DNA of 64,000 bases from Escherichia coli (GTDB lineage: Bacteria; Pseudomonadota; Gammaproteobacteria; Enterobacterales; Enterobacteriaceae): the NCBI RefSeq assembly GCF_003018255.1, contig NZ_CP027440.1; one strand, 5' to 3'. A program made the translations under genes and the position numbers. How positions within the stretch are numbered: the stretch's first letter is position 1; each line of letters begins with the position of its first letter. This document shows positions 2,586 through 64,000 of this stretch, in pieces. A model generated the notes under the pieces. It saw nothing but the letters and a program-made list of their open reading frames with translations. It was not told the DNA's origin and searched no databases.

Positions 2586-2756
2586 TTTTATACCCCTGAT
2601 AATGTGAGAGTCGGATTCGTTTAAGCAACCGCTATTCGTTAGGGCCAACATTACTCATAGCTGCCGCAGATGACAATGCTTTTATCCCTTTTCACTATCA
2701 TACCCTTTATCCTTGCTGAATCGAAGCAGCAGCAAGATGATTCTGAAGTTCAGGAA

Positions 2757-3815
2757 TTATTTGCGCAAGGCCCGGCAAATCAGATTCGATAGCAACTCAA
2801 GCTGATGTGCCGTTTCCATGTTCAGCCACACATAACCATAGATTGGTGTTTCCACAACCTTCAGGTCATGGTGGTTATCGAGCAACTGACGCAGCTCTTC
2901 CACAGCATCGTTCAATTTTTCCGTATTGGCAAAAACCGGCTGCGGATTACCTTCGTACAGCGCATGAACAAGGCTCAGCAGTATTTGCTGCATCATGTGC
3001 TGGGTATCACGAAGTTTTTGCGCGTTCAATAACACGAAATGGCTGGGGCGCGTGGCCCAGTATGCATTGATTTGCAACTCCAGCATACAAACCAGATTGC
3101 GATTAATGGTCTGGATACCTTCATATATCGATTTGGGAATACGGGTTTCTTTGCTGGCGGGCGCAATCAGCCCACGCATTTTCACGGCATCGGTCAGGAG
3201 TTTTTGTAGATGGCTTTCCAGACGTGGGCGTTCGAGTAAGTTCGGTGAGAATGCAGATTGATAGACCCGATTATACTCGGTCAGACTTTTCGCCAGTTGA
3301 ATGCGCCAGTGGATGAACGCCCGTTGTGGCCAGATACCGGTAAACAACATTGCCAGTAAAGAGCCGAGGATCACATCGCCGCTTCGCCATAACGCCGTAT
3401 CAATTTCACCTGTCGGGGAACCCACAACAATTGCCAGCGTCACCCCAATCAATAATCCTTGATACGGTTTCTTGCCCAGCGCCAGCCAACCGCAAAGAAA
3501 CATCGCCGCCGCGCACCAGACTAACATCAGCGGTAACGAAATTAACTCCAGTTGCAGAGCGATAAGACCTAAAATCGACCCCAACACCGTACCGCCAATA
3601 CGTTCGAAGGCACGAGGGACAACGTTCCCCCAGAACGAGATTGGCCCCATAATCACCACCATGGTGACCAGCGGCCAGGTGCTTTCCGGGATAGTAAACA
3701 GGCGGATAATGAGAAAAGTGAGCAGGAATGCCAGCGCGACCCGAGTACCATGCACAATGCGATAATGGCGGTATACCCGGATTTCAAACGGGCTTAATGA
3801 CTTATCGGCACGCAC
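2757..3815 (-). CDS. yeeA: Inner membrane protein YeeA (fusaric-acid-resistance-like family)
   Basis: 352 aa hydrophobic ORF in the conserved position between yeeX and sbmC. Confidence 0.8.
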   Translation of the reverse strand: MRADKSLSPFEIRVYRHYRIVHGTRVALAFLLTFLIIRLFTIPESTWPLVTMVVIMGPISFWGNVVPRAFERIGGTVLGSILGLIALQLELISLPLMLVWCAAAMFLCGWLALGKKPYQGLLIGVTLAIVVGSPTGEIDTALWRSGDVILGSLLAMLFTGIWPQRAFIHWRIQLAKSLTEYNRVYQSAFSPNLLERPRLESHLQKLLTDAVKMRGLIAPASKETRIPKSIYEGIQTINRNLVCMLELQINAYWATRPSHFVLLNAQKLRDTQHMMQQILLSLVHALYEGNPQPVFANTEKLNDAVEELRQLLDNHHDLKVVETPIYGYVWLNMETAHQLELLSNLICRALRK

Positions 3816-8839: not shown

Positions 8840-9105
8840 GGTCATTCTCCTTTACGGTGATAACCGTCGCGTAAGCAAAAAATTGCCCCATTTTTTTGGA
8901 TTCCTCAGCGACAACAACTGTCGATTTTTAGTAAATATCTATCCGGTACGAAGCCCGGCCTCTTGGTATGAATGATTGGTTTGAAGCAAAAAATAACCGA
9001 CGCTAATTAAACGTCGGTTTTTAGTCATTTTTTGACAGCGGCGCATTGTGCCTAAATGGGGGGGAAATGACAAGAGAATGAGAGGCTTGTCATAATAATT
9101 TTTCT

Positions 9106-11009: not shown

Positions 11010-11109
11010 GCCTGATGCGCTCCGCTTATCAGCCCTACAAAAACATCAATATATTGAATTTAGGCAACATTTGTAGACCTGATAAGGCATTCACGCCGCA
11101 TCCGGCAGG
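11010..11109. repeat. REP pair (BIME-like) in the yeeZ-hisL intergenic region
   Basis: Seen in sequence: gcctgatgcgctccgcttatcagccctaca ... tgtagacctgataaggcattcacgccgcatccggcagg, the canonical E. coli REP palindromic units in inverted orientation. Confidence 0.6.
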
Positions 11110-11329: not shown

Positions 11330-11380
11330 ATGACACGCGTTCAATTTAAACACCACCATCATCACCATCATCCTGACTAG
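11330..11380 (+). CDS. hisL: his operon leader peptide
   Basis: Seen in sequence: ATG ACA CGC GTT CAA TTT AAA followed by seven consecutive His codons, CCT GAC TAG (MTRVQFKHHHHHHHPD). Confidence 0.95.
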   Translation: MTRVQFKHHHHHHHPD

Positions 11381-11440
11381 TCTTTCAGGCGATGTGTGCT
11401 GGAAGACATTCAGATCTTCCAGTGGTGCATGAACGCATGA

Positions 11441-11480
11441 GAAAGCCCCCGGAAGATCACCTTCCGGGGGCTTTTTTATT
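11441..11480 (+). terminator. his attenuator terminator hairpin
   Basis: Seen in sequence: gaaaGCCCCCGGAAG-atcac-CTTCCGGGGGC-ttttttatt immediately upstream of hisG. Confidence 0.85.
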
Positions 11481-18559: not shown

Positions 18560-18600
18560 GTTGCGGGTGATCAGATGCGATGTTGTTGTCGCATCCGGCA

Positions 18601-37012: not shown

Positions 37013-37595
37013 GCCTGATGCGACGCTAACGCGTCTTATCAGACCTACAAGTCCCGAGCACAGAACCGTAGGCCGGATAAGGCGTTCACGCCGCATCCGG
37101 CATTCAGTGCCTGATGCGACGCTGACGCGTCTTATCAGGCCTACAAGATCCGAGCACAGAACCGTAGGACGGATAAGGCGTTCACGCCGCATCCGGCATT
37201 CAGTGCCTGATGCGACGCTGACGCGTCTTATCAGGCCTACAAGATCCGAGCACAGAACCGTAGGACGGATAAGGCGTTCACGCCGCATCCGGCATTCAGT
37301 GCCTGATGCGACGCTGACGCGTCTTATCAGGCCTACAAGACCCGAGCACAGAGCCGTAGGACGGATAAGGCGTTTTACGCCGCATCCGGCATTCAGTGCC
37401 TGATGCGACGCTGACGCGTCTTATCAGGCCTACAAGATCCGAGCACAGAACCGTAGGCCGGATAAGGCGTTCACGCCGCATCCGGCATTCAGTGCCTGAT
37501 GCGACGCTGGCGCGTCTTATCAGGCCTACAAGATCCAAGCCCAGCCCCCCAGGACGGATAAGGCGTTTTACGCCGCATCCGGCAACCGTTGCCGG
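37013..37595. repeat. Tandem array of about six 96-97 bp BIME units (inverted REP pairs) between wcaK and wzxC
   Basis: Seen in sequence: unit gcctgatgcgacgctgacgcgtcttatcaggcctacaagatccgagcacagaaccgtaggacggataaggcgttcacgccgcatccggcattcagt begins at about 37013, 37109, 37205, 37301, 37398 and 37494 with few substitutions. Confidence 0.85.
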
Positions 37596-37611
37596 AACCG
37601 AAAACAACCAT

Positions 37612-39090
37612 TCACCCCGCCCGTAAAAGCATTTTCATTTTTTCGCTGCGACAAAACTGACGCTTCACTTCCACCACCAGCGGATGGCGTGACAGCACAA
37701 TCATCACCACAAACGCCAGCACGCCTGCGGCTATTTGCACCGCCAGCAGCATCCCCAGCGCCAGTTGCCCTTTCAGCACAATGCCCAGCGCATAACTGAC
37801 CCCCAGTGTCGGCAACGAGAGATAAAACGGCAGCCACAAACTCAGGATGTACTGGCGATAACTGGAACCAAGAACCGGTTTAATCATCACGAAGTAACTC
37901 AGAATGGTGTTGATAATCTGCACCAGCAGGAAACCGAGCGTGACGCCGATTGCGCCCGCCATCTGCCCACCAATAACAATCGCCGGAATAAACAGAAATG
38001 TTTTGAATACGTTGAATTTAAAGCTGATATCGACCCGCGCTTTCGCCATCAGCAGCGAACCAATCGGGTTACCCACCGAACGCAGCAGTCCCACCACACA
38101 CAGCAATTGCAGCACCGGAATAATGCTGTTCCACTTCTCACCAAAGACCAGCGGTACAAAGTTATTCGACACCACCATCAGCCCCAGCAGCGCCGGAAAG
38201 TTGATAATCCCCACCACCGACAGCAGCTTGTAGAAGTTGACGCGCAGCTTTTCGGTGTCGTCCTGAATTTTGGCAAATGCCGGAAACAACACGCGGGTGA
38301 TGATTGGGTTCAGCTTCATCGGCGGCACAACGGCCACGTTGTACGCCAGGTTGTATCCCCCTGCCACGCCCGCGCCGAGAATACGCGCCAGCACCAGCGT
38401 TGAAAGGTTAGTGTTGAGATAGTTGATGATGCTGTCCGCCGTCAGCCAGGCACCAAAGCGTAAGTTCGGTGCCACCGACGCCAGCGAGAAATGCAGACCG
38501 GGGCGATAAATTTTGCGACCAAAGTAGCCAAACAGCAGCGTTCTCACCGCACTATTGACCAGATAACCGAGGATCGCAGTCATCGCCAGCGGCCAGAAAT
38601 GGGCGCTAACCACCGTAAAAGTGAAGCCCGCCAGCACCGCGCTGGTTTCGATCATGCCGATTTTGTTGAACTCCAGCTCCTTCTGCATCAACGCGCGGAA
38701 CTGTTGCCCGTGGGGGATTACCACAAACGCCAGCGACAATGTTTTAATCAACGGTGCCAGGTCCGGGTTGTTCAGCACGTCACCAATGAGATCACTCAAC
38801 AAAAACACCGCCACACACACCACAAGCCCCAGCCCGACGTTTAGCCAGTACAGCGTGGTGAGTTCAAGGTGGCTGATTTCTTTTCGCTGAATAATCGAGT
38901 TAGCGATACCGAAGTCAGAAAGCGTATCTGCCAGCGCGATAATCACCAGCGACACGGTAAGCAGGCCGAACTGGTGGTTGTCGATAATCCGCGCCAGCAC
39001 GGTCATCTGCACCAGCCCAAGGCCGATGATGATCACCGTGGCAATCGCCGACCACTTCGCGCCGCTGATGGTTTTTTCACGTAAGCTCAT
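37612..39090 (-). CDS. wzxC: Colanic acid repeat-unit flippase
   Basis: 492 aa polytopic ORF; synteny. Confidence 0.9.
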   Translation of the reverse strand: MSLREKTISGAKWSAIATVIIIGLGLVQMTVLARIIDNHQFGLLTVSLVIIALADTLSDFGIANSIIQRKEISHLELTTLYWLNVGLGLVVCVAVFLLSDLIGDVLNNPDLAPLIKTLSLAFVVIPHGQQFRALMQKELEFNKIGMIETSAVLAGFTFTVVSAHFWPLAMTAILGYLVNSAVRTLLFGYFGRKIYRPGLHFSLASVAPNLRFGAWLTADSIINYLNTNLSTLVLARILGAGVAGGYNLAYNVAVVPPMKLNPIITRVLFPAFAKIQDDTEKLRVNFYKLLSVVGIINFPALLGLMVVSNNFVPLVFGEKWNSIIPVLQLLCVVGLLRSVGNPIGSLLMAKARVDISFKFNVFKTFLFIPAIVIGGQMAGAIGVTLGFLLVQIINTILSYFVMIKPVLGSSYRQYILSLWLPFYLSLPTLGVSYALGIVLKGQLALGMLLAVQIAAGVLAFVVMIVLSRHPLVVEVKRQFCRSEKMKMLLRAG

Positions 39091-39091
39091 A

Positions 39092-40486
39092 TCAATATGC
39101 CGCTTTGTTAACGAAACCTTTGAATACCGTCAGGAAAACGATTTTGATATCGAACCAGACGCTCCATTCGCGGATGTACTCAAGGTCGAACTCGACGCGT
39201 TTTTCCATTTTCTCCAGTGTGTCGGTTTCGCCGCGCCAGCCGTTAATCTGCGCCCAGCCGGTAATGCCCGGTTTCACTTTATGGCGCAGCATGTAGCCTT
39301 CAATGAGCTGGCGATACTGTTCGTTATGCGCCACCGCGTGCGGACGTGGCCCGACAATCGACATCCCGCCAGTCAGCACATTGATAAACTGCGGCAATTC
39401 ATCCAGCGAGGTGCGGCGCAGAAAGTTCCCCACTTTGGTGACGCGCGGATCGTTCTGCGTCGCCTGGGTCACCACTTTGTCGTTCTCCATCACTTTCATG
39501 GAACGGAACTTCCACACTTTGATCGGCTTGCCGTCCATGCCGTAGCGAGTCTGGCGGAAAATAACCGGCCCCGGTGAGCTCAGTTTCACCGCCAGCGCAA
39601 TGCAGCACAGCACCGGGGAGATCAGCAGCAGGATAAGCGTCGCCAGCACAATATCTTCCGCACGTTTGAGCAGGCGGTTAACCCCGGAAAGCGGCGTGTC
39701 ATACAGCGGCACCACCGGAACGCCGTTCATCTCTTCGAGACGTGAATGGAGAATGTTGAAGGTAAAGACATCGGGGATCAGCAGCACCGAACAGGTGGTA
39801 TCCGCCAGTTGATGGACCAGTTTTTTCACTCGCGCGCCGTCGCACATTTGCATTGCGATATAGACGTTATGAATCTTGCCCGCTTTCGCATCCTCGACCA
39901 GCTGTTGCAGATTGCCCGCCCAGTCGTTAGAAACGCCGCCCGGTTTCGGGTCGTGGTAAACGCCCACCACTTCAAACCCTAACCACGGCTGATTACGGAA
40001 GCTCTCCATCAGCATTTGTCCGGCGGCTAAATCTCCCGCTACGGCGACCATGCGCTTGTTATAGCCATGATTACGCAGCCAGCCCGCCCCAATGCGAATA
40101 CACGAACGGCAAACCACCAGTCCGATGCTGGTCAGCCCATACCACGCCAGCCAGATTTTCAGTTGCGTGTCGAAATCATTGTTGAACGCCACCAGCCCGG
40201 CGCTGAAAATCACGCTTAACGTCCAGTTTTGTAGCAGCAGGGCAAATTCTGTCGCTGCCCGAACACCGCGCCATGAGCGATAAAAATCGGTGATGCCGCC
40301 CAGCATCTGGAACACCACCAGCGTAATCAGCGCCACCAACAGGTGCATGTAGAGGAATGACAGTCCGCTGACTTCGCAAACCAGCCATAGCCCGGCAAAC
40401 ATGATGGTGATATCTGAAAAGCGTTGCACCATAGAGATTAACGATGCATTGGTTTTCGCTCGCTCGCGCTTTTTTAGATTTGTCAT
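39092..40486 (-). CDS. wcaJ: Undecaprenyl-phosphate glucose phosphotransferase
   Basis: 464 aa ORF with N-terminal TM segments and C-terminal sugar-transferase domain (ELPQFINVLTGGMSIVGPRP); synteny. Confidence 0.92.
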   Translation of the reverse strand: MTNLKKRERAKTNASLISMVQRFSDITIMFAGLWLVCEVSGLSFLYMHLLVALITLVVFQMLGGITDFYRSWRGVRAATEFALLLQNWTLSVIFSAGLVAFNNDFDTQLKIWLAWYGLTSIGLVVCRSCIRIGAGWLRNHGYNKRMVAVAGDLAAGQMLMESFRNQPWLGFEVVGVYHDPKPGGVSNDWAGNLQQLVEDAKAGKIHNVYIAMQMCDGARVKKLVHQLADTTCSVLLIPDVFTFNILHSRLEEMNGVPVVPLYDTPLSGVNRLLKRAEDIVLATLILLLISPVLCCIALAVKLSSPGPVIFRQTRYGMDGKPIKVWKFRSMKVMENDKVVTQATQNDPRVTKVGNFLRRTSLDELPQFINVLTGGMSIVGPRPHAVAHNEQYRQLIEGYMLRHKVKPGITGWAQINGWRGETDTLEKMEKRVEFDLEYIREWSVWFDIKIVFLTVFKGFVNKAAY

Positions 40487-41911: not shown

Positions 41912-42001
41912 ATCGTTACCCTTTTTCAGGCAATAGTTGGCCCTGACCGAAGCGGCCAATTTTGTTTTTGTCGTTATTTACATCGCGGTTTCGCATTCAT
42001 T

Positions 42002-42103
<102 letters not shown>

Positions 42104-52481: not shown

Positions 52482-52590
<109 letters not shown>

Positions 52591-56527: not shown

Positions 56528-56566
56528 CACGCTACCGCCCCTGGCTTTTTAGCTACCAATACACTG
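56528..56566 (-). promoter_or_regulatory. JUMPstart/ops element in the wza 5' leader
   Basis: Seen in sequence: minus strand reads cagtgtattggtagctaaaaagccaggGGCGGTAGCGTG, a 39-bp JUMPstart with exact ops 12-mer, about 180 bp upstream of wza. Confidence 0.8.
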
Positions 56567-57007
56567 ATTTAGCTTAATTTTTAAAACCCTCTCAACATAC
56601 AGTCGTTGATGAGAAAGGGTTATTGCGGAAATTAACTTCCGAATATAAGGTGACATTATGGTAATTGAATATTGGCTCTCCAATAATGCAGGAGGAAGTG
56701 TTACAGCTAACGGAATAGCAGGCAAGGTAACAATTCGGCAATTGGCTATTTTTAAGAATTATATTAAGTGTCATTCAATATGGTTTTTAGGAGTTTCTTT
56801 AGGTTGACAATATTTAATATAGTGTCTCCACATGCGATATTTCTTAAATAATGTTTTATTATTACCACTTTTAATTCAGGGATAATGTGAGGTTATAAAC
56901 CTCAAATAATATGAGATAAATAGTGCTGCAACATTGCATTTTTGCCCCGATTTATCCATGATCGAATTGTGACATTTGTCATACAACGAATAGGTTTTGT
57001 ACTTACT

Positions 57008-58591
57008 ATGGAATGGATTGCCGATCCGTCTATCTGGGCCGGGTTAATCACGCTGATTGTGATCGAACTGGTCCTCGGCATTGATAACCTGGTCTTTATT
57101 GCCATCCTCGCCGAAAAACTACCGCCGAAGCAGCGCGACCGCGCACGGGTTACCGGGCTGTTGCTGGCGATGTTAATGCGCCTGTTACTGCTGGCGTCAA
57201 TCTCCTGGCTGGTCACCCTGACTCAACCGCTGTTCAGCTTCCGCTCGTTTACCTTTAGCGCCCGCGACTTAATCATGCTGTTTGGTGGTTTCTTCCTGTT
57301 GTTCAAAGCCACGATGGAGCTGAACGAACGGCTGGAAGGGAAAGACAGCAATAACCCCACCCAACGCAAAGGTGCGAAGTTCTGGGGGGTGGTGACACAA
57401 ATTGTGGTACTGGACGCCATCTTCTCACTCGACTCGGTGATTACCGCCGTCGGGATGGTCGACCATTTACTGGTCATGATGGCCGCCGTGGTTATCGCTA
57501 TCAGCCTGATGTTGATGGCCAGCAAGCCATTAACGCAATTTGTTAACAGTCACCCGACCATCGTTATTCTCTGCCTAAGTTTCCTGTTGATGATTGGCTT
57601 TAGCCTGGTGGCGGAAGGTTTCGGCTTCGTCATTCCGAAAGGCTACCTGTACGCTGCCATTGGTTTCTCGGTGATGATCGAGGCGCTCAATCAGTTGGCT
57701 ATCTTTAACCGGCGACGTTTTCTTTCCGCTAATCAGACGCTGCGCCAGCGGACTACCGAAGCGGTAATGCGCCTGCTTAGCGGGCAAAAAGAAGATGCGG
57801 AACTGGACGCCGAAACCGCGTCCATGCTGGTGGATCATGGTAACCAGCAGATCTTTAATCCGCAGGAACGGCGGATGATTGAGCGGGTACTTAATCTTAA
57901 CCAGCGTACCGTCAGCAGCATTATGACGTCGCGCCACGATATTGAGCATATCGATCTCAACGCGCCGGAAGAAGAAATCCGCCAGTTACTGGAGCGAAAT
58001 CAGCATACGCGGCTTGTCGTTACTGATGGCGATGACGCAGAAGATTTGCTCGGTGTTGTTCACGTTATCGACCTGTTACAACAGTCTCTGCGCGGCGAAC
58101 CGCTCAACCTGCGGGTGTTGATTCGCCAGCCGCTGGTGTTCCCGGAAACCTTGCCGTTGTTACCTGCCCTGGAGCAGTTCCGTAATGCCCGCACACACTT
58201 TGCTTTTGTGGTGGATGAGTTTGGCTCGGTGGAAGGGATTGTGACATTAAGTGACGTCACTGAAACCATTGCCGGTAACTTACCGAACGAAGTGGAAGAG
58301 ATCGACGCCCGCCATGATATTCAGAAGAATGCGGACGGTTCCTGGACGGCGAATGGTCATATGCCGCTGGAAGATCTGGTGCAATATGTGCCGCTACCGC
58401 TGGATGAGAAACGCGAATATCACACCATTGCCGGGCTGTTGATGGAATATTTGCAACGTATTCCAAAACCTGGCGAAGAAGTTCAGGTGGGGGATTATTT
58501 GCTTAAAACGTTGCAGGTGGAAAGCCATCGCGTGCAGAAGGTGCAGATTATTCCGCTGCATAAGGATGGCGAGATGGAGTACGAGGTGTGA
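57008..58591 (+). CDS. yegH: TerC-family membrane protein with C-terminal CBS/CorC domains (YegH)
   Basis: ORF 56942..58591; start placed at [35 protein letters not shown] (TerC signature); synteny after wza. Confidence 0.88.
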
Positions 58592-58665
58592 TAAAACATC
58601 AAATGCGCAGGTTCAAACTGCGCATTTGATTTATACAAAATTTAGTATAATCTAAGGATGGAGTA

Positions 58666-59004
58666 ATGAGAAAAAAGCTGGCTTTTCTTGATACCAGTCT
58701 TGACGATTTACGCGCATTTCCAGAATCGTCTCGACAGGAAATTGGCTATCAACTCGACAGGATCCAACAAGGGTTAAACCCATACGACTGGAAACCTTTT
58801 TCAACTATCGGCCCTGGTGTGCGAGAGATTCGTACTCGCGATGCTGATGGGATCTATCGCGTCATGTATGTCGCAAAATTTGAAGAAGCGGTTTACGTAT
58901 TGCATTGTTTTCAAAAGAAAACACAGACTACCAGTCAATCGAATATTGATTTAGCCAAACGACGCTATAAAGAACTTGTTCAGGAGCGGAAAAATGAAAA
59001 TTGA
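58666..59004 (+). CDS. Type II toxin, HigB/Gp49-like (RelE/ParE superfamily)
   Basis: 112 aa ORF; C-terminal region YRVMYVAKFEEAVYVLHCFQKKTQTTSQSNIDLAKRRYKEL resembles the conserved Gp49/HigB-like core as I recall it; good SD (aaggatgga) before the ATG; overlaps a downstream HTH gene. Confidence 0.6.
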   Translation: MRKKLAFLDTSLDDLRAFPESSRQEIGYQLDRIQQGLNPYDWKPFSTIGPGVREIRTRDADGIYRVMYVAKFEEAVYVLHCFQKKTQTTSQSNIDLAKRRYKELVQERKNEN

Positions 59005-59284
59005 AACCTTTGATAGTGTGTGGGATGCGGTGAGTGACACCCCTGAACAAGCGGAAAATATGCGGATCCGTGCCGAACTTGTTACGATCATTAATAACTG
59101 GATTGAACAACAAGGGTTTAGCCAGGCTCAGGCAGCGTCTGCTTTAGGGGTCACTCAACCTCGCATATCTGAACTTGCCAGAGGTAAGATCCAGATCTTT
59201 AGTATCGATAAATTGATCACCATGATGGCTCATGCAGGATTGCATATTCAACGTATTGAAGTTCAATATCCACATGCTGCTTAG
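58994..59284 (+). CDS. HTH (XRE/Cro-type) antitoxin, HigA-like
   Basis: ORF 58976..59284; start placed at MKIETFDSVWDAVSD after an SD (caggagcgg); helix-turn-helix region QAQAASALGVTQPRISELARGK; 11-bp overlap with the toxin stop. Confidence 0.6.
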   Translation: MKIETFDSVWDAVSDTPEQAENMRIRAELVTIINNWIEQQGFSQAQAASALGVTQPRISELARGKIQIFSIDKLITMMAHAGLHIQRIEVQYPHAA

Positions 59285-59336
59285 TACTATAAATACAGAT
59301 GGCGACAAATTGACGCCGCCATCTGCATAACTTGTC

Positions 59337-61190
59337 TTACATCTTCTCCAGCAACTTCTTCACATCTTTGCCATTGCGGGAATCTTTATTCCGCTCGGCC
59401 CAGTCATTCAGGCGACGTTTCGCTTCGTCCTGTAGATGTTTGCGCAGTAACTGATCCACTTGCAGGCTGTAATTAAGTTGCTGCCAGTTGCCATAAACCC
59501 GCAGCGGTACTGGCGTTTCTTTGAGGAAATCAATCAGTTTGCTTTCCCCGTTCCAACCGCCAATCACACGAATGTCAAACTGGGTGTCGCAGGTTTGATC
59601 TGCCAGATTCAACATGCCTTCCCCTGTCAGCGCCAGCACAGGCGATTGACCTTGCATGTCGTTTAACGTCACGACGCCATCCTTCAACGTCAAATCGGTG
59701 GTAAAGCGGTCAAGACGCGTTACGTTATCGAAGTTTTCAGCGGCCTTCACATCACCACCATTACGTTCTACCGCTTGCTGAATCATCTGCTGGAAGTTCA
59801 TCCCTTCCATGCGCGTGTCGGTCATTTCGACATGTGCCTGTCCTTGCCAGTTATGGCGGAATGCGTCGGCATCTATGTCAGCACCGGAGAAATCACCAGC
59901 CAGTGACATCTTTCCGGTCAACGAAATCGGATAGTTAAACGCCTTCAGAATGGTGCCAATCTCAACGTTTTCCAGCCGTGGCTGGAAGTTTATTCGCGGA
60001 TTTATTGATGTCGCGTCCAGCGTGCCCGGCAGTGAAACCTGTCCACCGTTAAGTTTGCCCTGCAGTTGAGTAATTTCCAGCAGACCCGACTTGTTGGTCA
60101 TTTGCGTGGCAACATCTGTAAAATTCATTCCGCGCCAGCGCACGTTACTGGCCTGCAACAAAATATCAGCCGTAAAGCCTTGCAGTCCCTGATAGGCCGG
60201 TTCATCAATACGCGAAGAAATGACCGGGCGCGGCAACGTGGATTGGCTCTGCCCCTGCTGCGCGGCACCGTTTTCACCGTTCGCTGTTTCTTTAAGCGGG
60301 ATGAGGTTGTCAAGATTCAGTTGCGGGAATTGCAGCCTCAGCTGCCATTCCGGTTTCTCTGTCAGCGTGACCTGTGCTTGCCCGCTCAGCGTACTGTCAT
60401 TGGCGGTCAAGCTGATTTGGTTAAATGAAAGGCGTTTATGTGACTCCTGCCACTGGGCCTGGAAACTCCCCTGCCCCTGAATACCTTGTTTTGGTAAATC
60501 TGCACCCTGCAACTGCCAGTTAACTTGTTCAATAGCCGCCGTTAAATCATGCGGATAATCAGAAGCATCTACCGTACCGTTAAGGGATATCGTGAGATCG
60601 CGCTGATCGCGATTAACCCGCCCGGAGAACTCAAATGAACCACGATGTTGGGGATCTTGTTCCATTTGCAGGCGAATATTGCGGATTGTCACCTGCTCGT
60701 CATCTTCATGCTGGAACACCAGCACGCTGTCCGCCACCTTAAGACTGGATATATCAAACGACCATCCGCGATCGTCTGACAGATCCGGCAAGGTATTGTC
60801 GCGCGGTGCAACCGGAGCGTCTTCACTGCGCACCGCTTCCGTCTGCGGCGTCAGTTGGATCACTGCCCCTTTTAGCATCACCTGCTTAACGCTCAGTTGA
60901 TGACTCAGCAGTGGTAAAAGCGCCACGTCCAGACGCATGTTGTCTGCGCGAACCAGTGGCTGGCTCGCGCCCTGGGCAGTGAGAGACATTCGCCCGGAGA
61001 GGATACTAAGCTGCGGCCAGACGTGCCAACGCAGTGGCCCGTCGAGCTGCAATTGATAACCGCTACGTGCAGCAACTTGCTTGACCATATAGTCGCGGAA
61101 ATCATTCGGATTCACCAGCAACACTAACGCAGATAACCCGGCCACCAGCACGACCAGGAGTATCATCAGCGTCGTCAGAAATCGTCTCAT
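59337..61190 (-). CDS. asmA: Outer membrane assembly protein AsmA
   Basis: 617 aa ORF with N-terminal TM anchor (MRRFLTTLMILLVVLVAGLSALVLL); synteny with dcd and udk. Confidence 0.92.
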   Translation of the reverse strand: MRRFLTTLMILLVVLVAGLSALVLLVNPNDFRDYMVKQVAARSGYQLQLDGPLRWHVWPQLSILSGRMSLTAQGASQPLVRADNMRLDVALLPLLSHQLSVKQVMLKGAVIQLTPQTEAVRSEDAPVAPRDNTLPDLSDDRGWSFDISSLKVADSVLVFQHEDDEQVTIRNIRLQMEQDPQHRGSFEFSGRVNRDQRDLTISLNGTVDASDYPHDLTAAIEQVNWQLQGADLPKQGIQGQGSFQAQWQESHKRLSFNQISLTANDSTLSGQAQVTLTEKPEWQLRLQFPQLNLDNLIPLKETANGENGAAQQGQSQSTLPRPVISSRIDEPAYQGLQGFTADILLQASNVRWRGMNFTDVATQMTNKSGLLEITQLQGKLNGGQVSLPGTLDATSINPRINFQPRLENVEIGTILKAFNYPISLTGKMSLAGDFSGADIDADAFRHNWQGQAHVEMTDTRMEGMNFQQMIQQAVERNGGDVKAAENFDNVTRLDRFTTDLTLKDGVVTLNDMQGQSPVLALTGEGMLNLADQTCDTQFDIRVIGGWNGESKLIDFLKETPVPLRVYGNWQQLNYSLQVDQLLRKHLQDEAKRRLNDWAERNKDSRNGKDVKKLLEKM

Positions 61191-61211
61191 GGTATCCTCA
61201 ATGGGCCTGAA

Positions 61212-61793
61212 TTAGTCTTTATCGATTCGACTGGCTACCGCGCCCTGCTGGTTGCGATATTTCGCATCTTCACGGCGGTTGTAAGGTCGCGCCGCCGGGC
61301 CGGAAAGCGGCTCAAAGCTCAGCGCACCAATTAACATGCCCGGACGCAGCGCCAGCGGCAGCTTACCGGAGTTGTAGAACTCCAGCACAATACAGCCAGA
61401 CCAGCCCGGATCGATACGGTGCGCGGTGACGTGCACCATAAGCCCCAGACGCGCCAGTGAGGAACGACCGTCCAGCCATCCCACCAGATCGGCTGGCAGC
61501 GTCACCGACTCCAGCGTCACCGCCAGCGCCAGCTCTCCTGGGTGAAGATAAAACGCCTCGCTTTCATCGAGTACGATCTCATCGCTCATCACGCGGTCAA
61601 GCGCGGCGCTCACTTCATCTTTGGGACCGCTCAGATCGATAAACGCAGCCGTGTGACCACGGAAGGTACGAAATTTATTGCCCAGGCGCACATCCACCGT
61701 CGCGCCGTTAATACGCTCCACTGGCGGACGTGGGTTGATCGACAAACGGCCTTCATCAAGCCAGGCTTCAATATCTCGGTCACACAGACGCAT
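61212..61793 (-). CDS. dcd: dCTP deaminase
   Basis: 193 aa [26 protein letters not shown]. Confidence 0.95.
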
Positions 61794-61884
61794 GGCATTT
61801 TCTCCTTTCGCGCATCACTCCCTTAACGCCAATTACGTCAAGGGCATACCAGGTTATCACTGAACGGTACACAATTTATCAAGC

Positions 61885-62526
61885 TTATTCAAAGAACTGA
61901 CTTATTTTCGCTTTCAATATATCGATGGCGATGCGGTTTTTCCCGCCGCGCGGCACGATAATGTCCGCATATTGTTTAGAAGGCTCAATGAATTGCAGGA
62001 ACATCGGACGCACGGTTTTTTGATATTGCGCCATCACTGAATCCATTGAACGCCCACGCTCGTTAACGTCACGCTTGATGCGGCGCATCAGGCAGATATC
62101 CAGCGGGGTATCAACGAAAATGGAGAAGTTAAGTTCATCACGCAAACGCGCATCCGTCAGCAGCAAAATGCCTTCGAGAATGATGACTTTCTTCGGCTCA
62201 ACCGTCACCGTTTCTTTCATACGCGTATGTTCAACATAGCTGTAAACCGGCAGGTCAATGGCCGAGCCGCGTTTCAACGCTTGTAAATGCTCAAGCAACA
62301 GGCTGTGATCCATAGCGCTGGGATGGTCGTAGTTGGTCTTAACGCGTTCTTCCATCGACAGATGGCTTTGATCTTTGTAATAGCAGTCTTCGGGAATTAC
62401 GCCGATGTGTTCATCACCGACTTGCTCACGTAATTCACGATAAAGGGTACTGGCAATAAGACTCTTGCCGGAAGCCGATGCGCCAGCGATACCGATAATG
62501 ACGCACTGATGAGACTGATCAGTCAT
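61885..62526 (-). CDS. udk: Uridine/cytidine kinase
   Basis: ORF 61885..62589; start placed at [22 protein letters not shown] (P-loop). Confidence 0.95.
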
Positions 62527-62853
62527 ATATTTAGCGACCTGATTAACCTGGATGTTAGGAAGGGGGCGACGAAGCGCCAAACGCGGCAATTATAGGGATT
62601 TCATCCGCCTGATACCAGTCGAATAGCGTTGCCGCGCGCTCAGAGTTAATTGTTGACGAAGAATTCCCGGTGGCAAATTACGTTGATCAGTTTTATACAA
62701 GGTAAAAATTGTTATACGCAGTTGCGCAAATTATCCGCCTTTACGTCACTTTATGAGCAATTCGCATATAAAATGTAAAACTTTTGTACTAGCATAAACA
62801 CAGAAACGAATACTGGCGACCTGGTCTTGCGGATAAAGCGGTAATGAGCAAAC

Positions 62854-64000
62854 AATCACAGCATGTATTAATTGCCCTGCCCCACCCGCTGCTTCACCTG
62901 GTCAGTTTAGGTTTAGTCTCGTTTATCTTTACCCTTTTCTCGCTTGAGCTTTCGCAGTTTGGCACCCAACTCGCCCCACTGTGGTTCCCGACGTCCATCA
63001 TGATGGTGGCGTTTTATCGCCATGCCGGGCGCATGTGGCCGGGGATTGCGCTGAGCTGCTCGCTGGGAAATATCGCCGCATCCATCCTGCTTTTTTCCAC
63101 CAGCTCGCTGAACATGACCTGGACGACCATCAATATTGTTGAAGCCGTGGTCGGGGCAGTGCTACTGCGTAAATTGCTGCCGTGGTATAACCCATTGCAA
63201 AATCTGGCTGACTGGCTGCGTCTGGCACTCGGCAGCGCCATTGTTCCACCTCTGTTAGGGGGTGTTCTGGTTATCCTGCTGACGCCCGGAGACGATCCTC
63301 TCAGGGCATTTTTGATATGGGTACTGTCAGAATCCATCGGCGCACTGGCACTGGTGCCGCTGGGATTGTTATTTAAACCACACTATCTGCTGCGCCATCG
63401 CAACCCACGGTTGCTTTTTGAGTCGCTGCTCACGTTAGCCATCACACTGACGTTAAGCTGGCTTTCGATGCTGTATCTGCCGTGGCCTTTTACTTTCATT
63501 ATTGTGCTGTTGATGTGGAGCGCCGTGCGCCTGCCACGAATGGAAGCCTTTTTGATCTTCCTTACCACGGTGATGATGGTGTCACTGATGATGGCCGCGG
63601 ATCCCTCCCTGCTTGCTACGCCGCGTACATACCTGATGAGCCATATGCCGTGGCTACCGTTTTTGCTGATCCTGCTGCCCGCCAACATCATGACCATGGT
63701 GATGTATGCCTTTCGTGCGGAACGCAAACACATTTCCGAAAGCGAAACCCGCTTTCGGAACGCGATGGAATATTCCGCCATCGGCATGGCATTAGTGGGC
63801 ACCGAGGGACAATGGCTGCAATCCAACAAAGCGCTCTGCCAGTTTCTCGGTTACAGTCAGGAAGAGCTGCGCGGACTCACCTTTCAGCAACTGACCTGGC
63901 CGGAGGATCTCAATAAAGATCTGCAACAGGTTGAAAAGCTGATCAGCGGTGAAATAAACACCTATTCAATGGAAAAACGCTACTACAACCGCAATGGCGA
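62854..64000 (+). CDS. dgcE: Diguanylate cyclase DgcE (YegE), N-terminal membrane (MASE1-like) region; gene continues past the window end
   Basis: ATG at 62854 (MSKQSQHVLIALPHP...) opens a frame with no stop before the window end; it is missing from the ORF track only because it is unterminated; hydrophobic N-terminus then PAS-like region; synteny after udk. Confidence 0.85.

What the first reader, a model, noticed from the sequence alone, without database searches (positions are those of the whole stretch)
37013..37595. Six-copy tandem BIME array that generates spurious repetitive ORFs
Between wcaK and wzxC a unit of about 96 bp made of two inverted REP sequences is repeated roughly six times, head to tail, with very few substitutions. 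The ORF track reports four overlapping ORFs here with internally repeated peptides (for example RRERLIRPTVLCSDLVGLIRRVSVASGTECRM); these are artefacts of the repeat. An array of this size inside an operon could act as an mRNA stability or Rho-dependent polarity element, and it is a potential site of copy-number variation.
Basis: seen in the sequence. Interest (0 to 1): 0.35.

Follow-up and report, generated by a model that had tools for sequence, protein, structure and literature searches.

The report
Known REP repeat array, expanded allele
This is an ordinary, already described kind of E. coli repeat (a BIME-2 array of twelve REP hairpins) lying between two colanic-acid capsule genes; its copy number ranges from 0 to 7 units between strains, and the open reading frames inside it are almost certainly artefacts.

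Summary
Window 37012-37584 holds 5.9 head-to-tail copies of a 96-bp unit (one unit is 97 bp). Each unit is a Z2 REP, a 19-nt linker, an inverted Y REP and a 5-6-nt linker, giving 12 REP hairpins. This is a textbook BIME-2 array.

It lies in the 660-bp untranslated spacer of the colanic-acid (wca) operon. The operon runs on the minus strand, so wzxC is upstream and wcaK downstream.

It is the expanded allele of K-12's REP144, which has 2 units. In 118 sampled complete E. coli genomes the spacer held 0, 1, 2, 3, 4, 5, 6 or 7 units (16/20/35/8/11/13/3/1 rows). CFT073, Nissle 1917 and ATCC 25922 carry 6 units. REP indels at this spacer were published in 2011.

The four repeat-derived ORFs match no Pfam family above its cut-off, and RefSeq does not call them.

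The most likely function is a modest RNA-decay barrier and read-through attenuator, by analogy with REP325. It is dispensable: empty alleles are common and most other Enterobacteriaceae have a 14-32-nt junction. Strong Rho-dependent polarity is doubtful, because the operon has an ops/RfaH leader and the sense RNA is G-rich.

Verdict: already known, low interest.

The parts
37012..37584 (-). BIME-2 array: six units (12 REP hairpins, 6 Y + 6 Z2), transcribed as part of the wca operon on the minus strand
   Evidence: TRF period 96, 5.9 copies; 12 hairpins of -14.8 to -20.5 kcal/mol
37012..37107 (.). Unit 1 (type s), 96 bp, nearest wcaK; 5 differences from units 2 and 3
37108..37203 (.). Unit 2 (type g), 96 bp, identical to unit 3
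37204..37299 (.). Unit 3 (type g), 96 bp, identical to unit 2, which points to a recent in-register duplication
37300..37396 (.). Unit 4 (type h), 97 bp: the Y loop reads TTTTAC instead of TTCAC; the extra base breaks the reading frames of the repeat ORFs
37397..37492 (.). Unit 5 (type r), 96 bp, shared with CFT073
37493..37584 (.). Unit 6 (type p*), terminal unit next to wzxC, with a diverged linker (CCAAGCCCAGCCCCCCAGG) and a weaker Y hairpin; shared with CFT073 and R12
37585..37611 (-). Spacer between the wzxC stop codon and the first REP stem (27 nt); it can form a small competing hairpin (CCGGCAA/UUGCCGG) and can pair with the far flank
36952..37011 (-). wcaK leader, about 60 nt between the last REP and the wcaK AUG, containing the GAGG Shine-Dalgarno sequence
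37612..39090 (-). wzxC (colanic-acid flippase), the gene upstream of the array
35671..36951 (-). wcaK (pyruvyl transferase), the gene downstream of the array
56528..56566 (-). JUMPstart/ops element (GGCGGTAGCGTG) in the leader of the wca operon, about 19 kb upstream of the array
   Evidence: RfaH ChIP on wza-wcaM in CFT073 (PMC9765446)
36959..37288 (-). Spurious repeat ORF, 109 aa
37011..37403 (+). Spurious repeat ORF, 130 aa
37296..37607 (-). Spurious repeat ORF, 103 aa
37396..37626 (+). Spurious repeat ORF, 76 aa

Best explanation
The feature is a BIME-2 array of six units, each a Z2 REP and an inverted Y REP, giving 12 hairpins. It occupies the untranslated wzxC-wcaK spacer of the colanic-acid operon and is the expanded allele of the element catalogued in K-12 as REP144. 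Shown here: it is a lineage-specific insertion in Escherichia, it is absent from some E. coli and from most other Enterobacteriaceae, and it changes size in whole 96-bp units. Inferred: the size changes come from unequal recombination or slippage between units, possibly helped by the REP-associated transposase. Inferred from position: it is transcribed within the wca polycistronic RNA, which would carry 12 stable stem-loops without U-tracts. Inferred by analogy with REP325 and classic REP work: these stem-loops block 3'-to-5' exonucleases, which stabilises the wza...wzxC part of the message, and they modestly reduce read-through into wcaK-wcaL-wcaM, probably more so with more units. The effect is modulatory, not essential. 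My confidence is about 0.97 in the identity and about 0.45 in the RNA-level mechanism; the single figure given is a compromise between the two.
For: Identity. Exact or near-exact Y and Z2 REPs alternate in orientation, with constant short linkers. This matches the published BIME-2 definition of z2 plus y in multiple tandem copies, with copy number variable between strains (PMC3333891). Rfam naRNA4, a model of a Y-Z2 pair, scores 69-82 bits on five units.
Insertion and unit-wise change. A clean 71-bp empty allele exists, together with alleles of 0.5 to 7 units. Alleles are mosaics of shared unit types: the window is s-g-g-h-r-p* and CFT073 is q-h-g-h-r-p*. Adjacent identical units occur in the window and in the 7-unit allele. 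In 48 of 77 species the junction is 40 nt or shorter.
RNA structure. There are 12 hairpins of -14.8 to -20.5 kcal/mol, and the fold has z = -16.4. No intrinsic terminator or sigma-70 promoter is detected.
Precedent. REP325 is also a 12-hairpin Y/Z2 array between two co-directional genes. Deleting it drops the upstream/downstream RNA ratio from 35 to 1. It gives about 8-fold attenuation on plasmids, stabilises the upstream mRNA, and shows Rho-dependence only at full array length (10.64898/2026.03.23.713779).
Against: Nothing here measures RNA from a 6-unit strain. In K-12 (2 units), the RNA-seq table of the REP preprint gives baseMean wzxC 36 and wcaK 91, so there is no upstream bias at basal expression; counts are low and the operon is essentially off. 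The array lies in the opposite orientation to transcription compared with REP325. Its linkers differ (period 96 against 100). Its sense RNA is G-rich (C/G 0.89 against 1.27 for REP325), which is unfavourable for Rho. The operon has an ops/JUMPstart leader and RfaH binds wza-wcaM in CFT073, which should suppress Rho-dependent termination and pausing. About 14% of sampled E. coli lack the array, and most related species have a 14-32-nt junction, so colanic-acid synthesis does not need it.
Confidence: 0.6

Rival explanations
1. Functionally neutral selfish or junk repeat. The array persists and drifts in size because this is the one uncoupled, insertion-tolerant junction at this end of the operon, and it has no selected effect on expression.
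For: Copy number is spread broadly from 0 to 7, and empty alleles are common. An unrelated 161-bp spacer allele is present in about 275 genomes. An IS element sits in the array in the closest relative. A REP-to-REP deletion is seen in another Escherichia. Neighbouring junctions overlap or are about 10 nt long and so cannot accept inserts. K-12 RNA-seq shows no upstream bias.
Against: A 12-hairpin array in an mRNA is unlikely to have no effect on decay, given REP325 and the classic REP data. Different palindromic repeats have colonised this one junction in many genera: 29 of 77 species against 0 of 80, 5 of 75 and 7 of 74 at neighbouring junctions. That is also compatible with selection for a stem-loop there.
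Confidence: 0.35
2. DNA-level role. The array is a strong, transcription-independent DNA gyrase site in the middle of a roughly 23-kb operon, where it manages supercoiling or defines a topological boundary. This does not exclude the RNA-level role.
For: Gyrase cleavage sites are significantly over-represented in BIME-2 elements in vivo, preferentially in Y REPs, and their signal rises when transcription is blocked (PMC6379681). This array has six Y REPs.
Against: Only a subset of BIME-2 elements are cleaved. There are no data for this locus. The array is dispensable in many strains.
Confidence: 0.25
3. The array encodes naRNA4-like small RNAs that bind HU and condense the nucleoid.
For: Five Rfam naRNA4 hits lie above the gathering score. 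The original naRNA4/HU model is in PMC4550694.
Against: The passing hits are on the plus strand, antisense to the operon. On the transcribed strand the scores (48-55 bits) fall below the gathering score of 59.5. No promoter is detected. The 2026 re-examination found that REP325/naRNA4 has no measurable effect on nucleoid compaction or REP-REP contacts (abstract).
Confidence: 0.03
4. One or more of the four ORFs encodes a real repeat protein.
For: ORFs of 76-130 aa with ATG, GTG or TTG starts exist.
Against: They occur on both strands and overlap one another. Their length follows unit count and is broken by the single 97-bp unit. No Pfam family is matched above its cut-off. RefSeq does not call them in 6- and 7-unit genomes. 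They vanish in the 0-unit alleles.
Confidence: 0.01
5. Assembly artefact that inflates the repeat number.
For: Tandem repeats of about 600 bp can be mis-assembled from short reads, and the reads behind this window cannot be inspected.
Against: Sixty listed complete genomes show the same 6-unit span, including repeated independent assemblies of Nissle 1917, CFT073 and ATCC 25922. The window shares its last four unit types in order with CFT073.
Confidence: 0.01

Closest known systems
REP144 of E. coli K-12 (the BIME-2 in the wzxC-wcaK spacer) and its strain variants
   Same: Same locus, same flanks, same Y/Z2 units and linkers. REP indels of 2 and 4 REPs at this spacer, and a recombination junction there, were reported by Iguchi et al. 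2011 (PMC3158064).
   Different: K-12 has 2 units in a 275-bp spacer. This window has 6 units in a 660-bp spacer, which puts it in the top ~3% of the sampled distribution; one 7-unit allele was found.
REP325 of E. coli K-12 (yjdM-yjdN), source of naRNA4 / Rfam RF02564
   Same: Six tandem units, each one Y and one Z2 REP (12 hairpins), lying between two co-directional genes of one operon. It is shown experimentally to attenuate read-through and stabilise the upstream mRNA.
   Different: The period is 100 bp rather than 96, with a long head-to-head linker and a different tail-to-tail linker. Its orientation relative to transcription is the opposite. Its sense RNA has C/G 1.27 against 0.89 here. 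The yjdMN operon is not reported to have an ops/RfaH leader, whereas wca has one.
Classic intercistronic REPs (malE-malF, hisJ-hisQ)
   Same: REP stem-loops between cistrons that protect upstream mRNA from 3' exonucleases and create differential expression within an operon. This rests on my knowledge of Newbury 1987 and Stern 1988, which are cited in PMC3158064.
   Different: Those elements hold 2-3 REPs, not 12. No expression data exist for the wca junction in a 6-unit strain.

Membership tests
BIME-2 | Built from Y and Z2 REPs (not Z1) | tested here: met
   Six Y and six Z2 REPs are present. Several match the Y and Z2 consensus exactly, and there is no Z1 match. The consensus sequences came from memory and were cross-checked against REP325, which the literature describes as Y + Z2, and against the Rfam naRNA4 hits.
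BIME-2 | REP and inverted REP alternate in orientation | tested here: met
   Z2 reads on the plus strand and Y on the minus strand in every unit.
BIME-2 | Multiple tandem copies, with copy number variable between strains | tested here: met
   5.9 copies here and 0-7 among E. coli genomes. Definition in PMC3333891.
BIME-2 | Short S linker between the two REPs, and s, l or r flanking motifs (no long L linker with an IHF site) | tested here: inconclusive
   The linkers are short and constant: 19 nt tail-to-tail and 5-6 nt head-to-head. I had no published S or s consensus to compare them with, so the linker type is not formally assigned.
BIME-2 | Bound and cleaved by DNA gyrase | not testable with these tools
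   Known for a subset of BIME-2 elements (PMC6379681). There are no data for this locus.
Rfam RF02564 naRNA4 | Covariance-model score at or above the gathering score on the transcribed strand | tested here: not met
   The plus strand (antisense to the operon) scores 69-82 bits against a gathering score of 59.5. The minus strand (operon sense) scores 48-55 bits, below it.
Rfam RF02564 naRNA4 | Discrete ~77-nt RNA that binds HU | not testable with these tools
   No expression or binding data are available here. The family's proposed function was itself questioned in 2026.
REP325-type dual attenuator and stabiliser | Multi-hairpin BIME-2 array between co-directional genes of one operon | tested here: met
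   wzxC and wcaK are both on the minus strand within the wca operon, with 12 hairpins between them.
REP325-type dual attenuator and stabiliser | Upstream gene RNA exceeds downstream gene RNA, and the difference depends on the array | tested here: inconclusive
   The only data are for K-12 (2 units) at basal expression: baseMean wzxC 36 and wcaK 91, so no upstream bias. There are no data for 6 units or for the induced operon.
REP325-type dual attenuator and stabiliser | Partial Rho-dependence (a C-rich, G-poor transcript would favour it) | tested here: not met
   C/G of the sense RNA is 0.89 here against 1.27 for REP325. The ops/RfaH leader also argues against it. This is a compositional proxy only, not an assay.
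Intrinsic (Rho-independent) terminator | GC-rich hairpin followed by a U-tract | tested here: not met
   No terminator-like sites in 36500-38100 on either strand.
REP-mediated translation down-regulation (REP within about 15 nt of a stop codon; criterion recalled from Liang, Rudd and Deutscher 2015, paper not retrievable here) | REP stem begins within about 15 nt of the upstream stop codon | tested here: not met
   The first REP stem starts 27 nt or more after the wzxC TGA. A small alternative hairpin starts at about 17 nt.
CRISPR array | Identical repeats separated by unique spacers | tested here: not met
   The segments between the palindromes are themselves constant linkers, and the whole 96-bp unit repeats.

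The most novel reading that the evidence does not exclude
The wzxC-to-wcaK junction may be a selected 'insulator' position in the colanic-acid operon. Unrelated palindromic repeats (REP/BIME, a GGGAGAGGG-type palindrome, an ERIC-like element) appear to have been recruited there independently in many Enterobacteriaceae. In E. coli the number of BIME-2 units (0-7) would then act as a heritable dial, setting the ratio of early genes (wza...wzxC) to late genes (wcaK-L-M) and so the amount or pyruvylation of colanic acid.
Probability: 0.12. Interest if true: 0.45.

Novelty: already known. Interest (0 to 1): 0.12.

Why it matters
It matters little as a discovery. BIME-2 arrays, their strain-to-strain copy-number variation, this particular locus (REP144) and its REP indels are all published. 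Three practical points follow. First, annotation pipelines should mask the array, because it generates four spurious ORFs and five Rfam naRNA4 hits on the non-transcribed strand. Second, the locus is a natural allelic series of 0 to 7 units, including in tractable strains: K-12 has 2, O157:H7 has 1, and Nissle 1917 and CFT073 have 6. That series could be used to test whether REP array length tunes operon polarity in an RfaH-controlled operon. Third, the array is a hotspot for rearrangement in the region flanking the O-antigen cluster: an IS insertion, a REP-to-REP deletion and recombination junctions were all seen or reported there.

Tried and rejected
(1) My first regex annotation of REPs in the allele set missed many copies because of non-overlapping fuzzy matching. 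I replaced it by splitting the spacers at unit heads and by a separate hairpin search.
(2) A script failed because loci are stored in multi-record files. This was fixed.
(3) The NC_000913.3 feature table returned no REP features for this spacer. The name REP144 came from a paper supplement instead.
(4) The full-array query against E. coli genomes is confounded, because BLAST covers all query units with only a few subject units, and the 40-piece limit was reached. I switched to flank-only queries.
(5) I could not retrieve Espeli 2001 (BIME attenuation) or Liang 2015 (REP and translation) from the library. Statements that depend on them are marked as coming from memory.
(6) I tested whether the GC-rich palindrome in the alternative 161-bp spacer is a dispersed repeat. 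Megablast found only 1-2 places per genome, so I do not claim it is 'boxC'.
(7) Considered and rejected: CRISPR, intrinsic terminator, internal promoter, coding ORFs and assembly artefact (see the rivals and membership tests).
(8) I did not use the large protein searches or structure prediction, because no credible protein is involved.

Full report
**1. What is in the sequence**

Tandem Repeats Finder reports one array at 37012-37584: period 96, 5.9 copies, 94% matches, score 1009. It is the only tandem array of score 60 or more in the whole window.

Cutting the array in register shows the following:
- Units 2 and 3 are identical.
- Unit 1 differs from them at 5 positions.
- Unit 4 has one extra base (TTTTAC for TTCAC in a hairpin loop) and is 97 bp.
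- The unit next to wzxC has a diverged linker.

Each unit reads, on the plus strand: a Z2 REP, a constant 19-nt tail-to-tail linker (AAGATCCGAGCACAGAACC), an inverted Y REP, and a 5-6-nt head-to-head linker (TTCAG). I supplied the Y and Z2 consensus sequences from memory. Several copies match them exactly. I cross-checked the assignment against REP325 of K-12, which the literature describes as Y + Z2, and against the Rfam model built on it.

In total there are 12 REP hairpins, six Y and six Z2, each of -14.8 to -20.5 kcal/mol as RNA on either strand. The REP head motif occurs 21 times in the window against 0.47 expected, and 12 of those are in the array.

**2. Context**

All neighbouring genes are on the minus strand: wcaJ 39092-40486, wzxC 37612-39090, wcaK 35671-36951 and wcaL 34454-35674. 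RefSeq names under BLAST matches confirm them. Transcription therefore runs wzxC, then the array, then wcaK.

The operon begins about 19 kb upstream with a JUMPstart/ops element at 56528-56566(-). The first REP stem starts 27 nt after the wzxC stop codon. The last REP ends about 60 nt before the wcaK AUG, which leaves its GAGG Shine-Dalgarno sequence free. No sigma-70-like promoter or intrinsic terminator is predicted in 36500-38100. The 686-nt sense RNA folds at -356.8 kcal/mol, z = -16.4.

**3. The ORFs**

Several lines of evidence mark them as artefacts:
- They lie on both strands and overlap one another.
- They are open only because 96 bp equals 32 codons.
- On each strand the single 97-bp unit splits the frame into two ORFs.
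- None matches a Pfam family above its cut-off.
- RefSeq annotation of genomes with 6 or 7 units calls no CDS between wcaK and wzxC.

**4. Comparison across E. coli**

K-12 MG1655 has a 275-bp spacer against 660 bp here, that is 2 units against 6.

Searching with the array itself is confounded by the repeat. I therefore searched with concatenated flanks only and read the spacer length from the span of each hit, using evenly spaced rows down the ranking.

| Units in spacer | Rows (of 118) |
|---|---|
| 0 (clean ~71-bp empty site) | 16 |
| 1 | 20 |
| 2 | 35 |
| 3 | 8 |
| 4 | 11 |
| 5 | 13 |
| 6 | 3 |
| 7 | 1 |
| Odd alleles | 11 |

The 7-unit allele was checked directly and has seven in-register units. 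The odd alleles include a half unit left by an internal deletion. They also include an unrelated 161-bp spacer with a GC-rich palindrome, which occurs in about 275 genomes including ATCC 11775 and E. coli C.

Copy number is stable within clones:
- All listed K-12 derivatives have 2 units.
- All listed O157:H7 strains have 1 unit.
- Many independent assemblies of Nissle 1917, CFT073 and ATCC 25922 have 6 units.

So the variation is real and population-level. It is not hypermutable on laboratory timescales, and it is not an assembly artefact.

Unit typing shows that the alleles are mosaics of shared units: the window is s-g-g-h-r-p*, CFT073 is q-h-g-h-r-p* and R12 is l-m-g-n-o-p*. Together with the adjacent identical units, this fits unequal recombination or slippage in 96-bp register. 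The REP-associated transposase model for BIME amplification (PMC3333891) cannot be excluded.

**5. Source of the window**

The wca genes are at most about 98% identical to any complete E. coli genome. The adjacent 57-64 kb segment, however, is 99.9% identical to strain JNE112863, and only 9 records reach 99%. The window is therefore from a rare E. coli lineage whose wca region is recombinant.

In JNE112863 the same spacer holds five units, with an IS3-family element (ISEc31) inserted in the tail-to-tail linker of the fourth unit.

**6. Other species**

A scan with WcaK of one genome per species gave 80 loci.

| Junction | Median spacer (nt) | Species with spacer over 40 nt |
|---|---|---|
| wcaJ-wzxC | 9 | 5 of 75 |
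| wzxC-wcaK | 30 | 29 of 77 (17 over 100 nt) |
| wcaK-wcaL | -4 (overlap) | 0 of 80 |
| wcaL-wcaM | 11 | 7 of 74 |

At the wzxC-wcaK junction, 48 of 77 species have a spacer of 40 nt or less.

The longer wzxC-wcaK spacers contain different palindromic elements:
- REP-like sequences in Escherichia, Citrobacter and Salmonella arizonae (9 loci).
- A GGGAGAGGG-type palindrome in 10 loci from several genera.
- An ERIC-like element in 1 locus.
- No recognisable repeat in the other 9.

The array is thus a derived feature of Escherichia and not a conserved part of the operon. The junction is either unusually tolerant of insertions or favours a stem-loop. My data do not separate these two readings.

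**7. What is known**

- Ton-Hoang et al. define BIME-2 as z2 + y REPs in multiple tandem copies with short linkers. They state that the number of tandem copies at a locus varies between strains (PMC3333891).
- Iguchi et al. 2011 reported REP indels of 2 and 4 REPs in exactly this wcaK-wzxC spacer, and a recombination junction there (PMC3158064).
- The K-12 element is catalogued as REP144.
- REP325, between yjdM and yjdN, is the best-studied six-unit Y/Z2 array. It was first proposed to yield HU-binding naRNA4 (PMC4550694). A 2026 preprint found no nucleoid effect but a local dual role. Deleting it changed the yjdM/yjdN RNA ratio from 35 to 1. It attenuated read-through about 8-fold on plasmids, stabilised the upstream mRNA, produced a ladder of truncated RNAs, and showed partial Rho-dependence only with the full 12-hairpin array (10.64898/2026.03.23.713779).
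- Gyrase cleavage is enriched in BIME-2 elements, mainly in Y REPs (PMC6379681).

**8. How this array compares with REP325**

The architecture is the same (12 hairpins between co-directional genes), but there are differences:
- REP325 has a 100-bp period with other linkers.
- REP325 lies in the opposite orientation to transcription. This explains why the Rfam naRNA4 hits pass the gathering score only on the plus strand here (69-82 bits), while the operon-sense strand scores 48-55 bits against 59.5.
- The sense RNA here has C/G 0.89, against 1.27 for REP325.
- RfaH occupies wza-wcaM in CFT073, a 6-unit strain (PMC9765446).

The last two points argue against strong Rho-dependent polarity here.

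In K-12 the RNA-seq table of the REP preprint lists baseMean 36 for wzxC and 91 for wcaK. With two units and at basal expression there is therefore no upstream bias, although the counts are low.

**9. Conclusion**

- Identity is secure: this is a BIME-2 array, the 6-unit allele of REP144.
- The most likely activity is a modest, copy-number-graded RNA-decay barrier and attenuator between wzxC and wcaK. This is inferred by analogy, it is dispensable, and it is untested here.
- A purely neutral repeat and a gyrase-site role remain live alternatives.
- Everything about the kind of element, the locus and its polymorphism is already described, so novelty is nil and interest is low.

Noticed in passing
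L092 4295-5508 (E. coli JNE112863, NZ_AP045072.1); corresponds to window ~37350-37445: In the closest complete relative of the window's strain, an IS3-family element (ISEc31) is inserted inside the same BIME array. It sits in the tail-to-tail linker of the fourth unit and has an apparent 3-bp target duplication (ACA). It presumably has a polar effect on wcaK-L-M.
   Followed up: partly
L091 ~2670-2690 (Escherichia sp. MOD1-EC7003); window ~52543 joined to ~37273: The REP cluster after wzc is joined directly to the wcaK-proximal BIME units, so wcaA...wzxC (about 15 kb) is missing. This looks like a REP-to-REP deletion. A second gap corresponding to window 55400 to 53036 is also present.
   Followed up: partly
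L012-L090, spacer just upstream of the WcaK match (about 2700-3000 in each locus): Across Enterobacteriaceae the wzxC-wcaK junction is usually 14-32 nt. In 29 of 77 species it is longer than 40 nt and often holds palindromic repeats: REP-like, GGGAGAGGG-type or ERIC-like. Neighbouring junctions rarely or never do (0 of 80, 5 of 75, 7 of 74).
   Followed up: partly
L004 801-961 (E. coli APEC 16-1068); replaces window 36952-37611: An unrelated 161-bp wcaK-wzxC spacer allele carries a GC-rich palindrome (CCCCTCGCCCCCTGGGGAGAGGGTTAGGGTGAGGGGG) and a different wcaK leader. It is present in about 275 complete E. coli genomes, including ATCC 11775 and E. coli C.
   Followed up: partly
window 28000-52000 versus 57000-64000: The wca cluster is at most about 97-98% identical to any complete E. 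coli genome, while the adjacent yegH-asmA-dcd-udk segment is 99.9% identical to JNE112863. This is a recombination mosaic next to the O-antigen locus, as described by Iguchi 2011.
   Followed up: partly
window 42002-42102 and 41916-41965(-): A second small BIME (Z2, Y, Z2) lies in the cpsB-cpsG spacer, directly upstream of an Rfam 'algC RNA' motif hit (77 bits) at the 5' end of cpsG.
   Followed up: no
window 52482-52543; 11094-11106; 18587-18599: Further REPs lie in the wzc-wcaA spacer, upstream of the his leader and after hisI. These are the same intergenic sites listed by Iguchi 2011.
   Followed up: no
window 30597-30635(-) and 30716-30727(-): A JUMPstart/ops element heads the O-antigen cluster (Rfam 56 bits). 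A second ops-like GGCGGTAGTATG lies 119 bp upstream of it.
   Followed up: no
window 11356-11479(+); 8986-9060(-): Rfam hits to the histidine operon leader (131.6 bits) and to the enterobacterial sRNA STnc240 (69.3 bits).
   Followed up: no
K-12 NC_000913.3 2118651-2118749(+), equivalent to window ~37585-37680(+): A supplement table of the 2026 REP preprint lists an in-vitro Rho-binding peak on the strand antisense to wzxC, at its 3' end. It overlaps REP144 by 1 nt.
   Followed up: no
L003 801-871 (empty allele) and window 37585-37611 with 36990-37011: The empty-site spacer folds into a weak hairpin (GUUGUUUU/AAAACAAC) just after the wzxC stop codon, and the BIME sits in its loop. In the window the same flanks can still pair around the whole array (duplex -14.8 kcal/mol).
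   Followed up: partly
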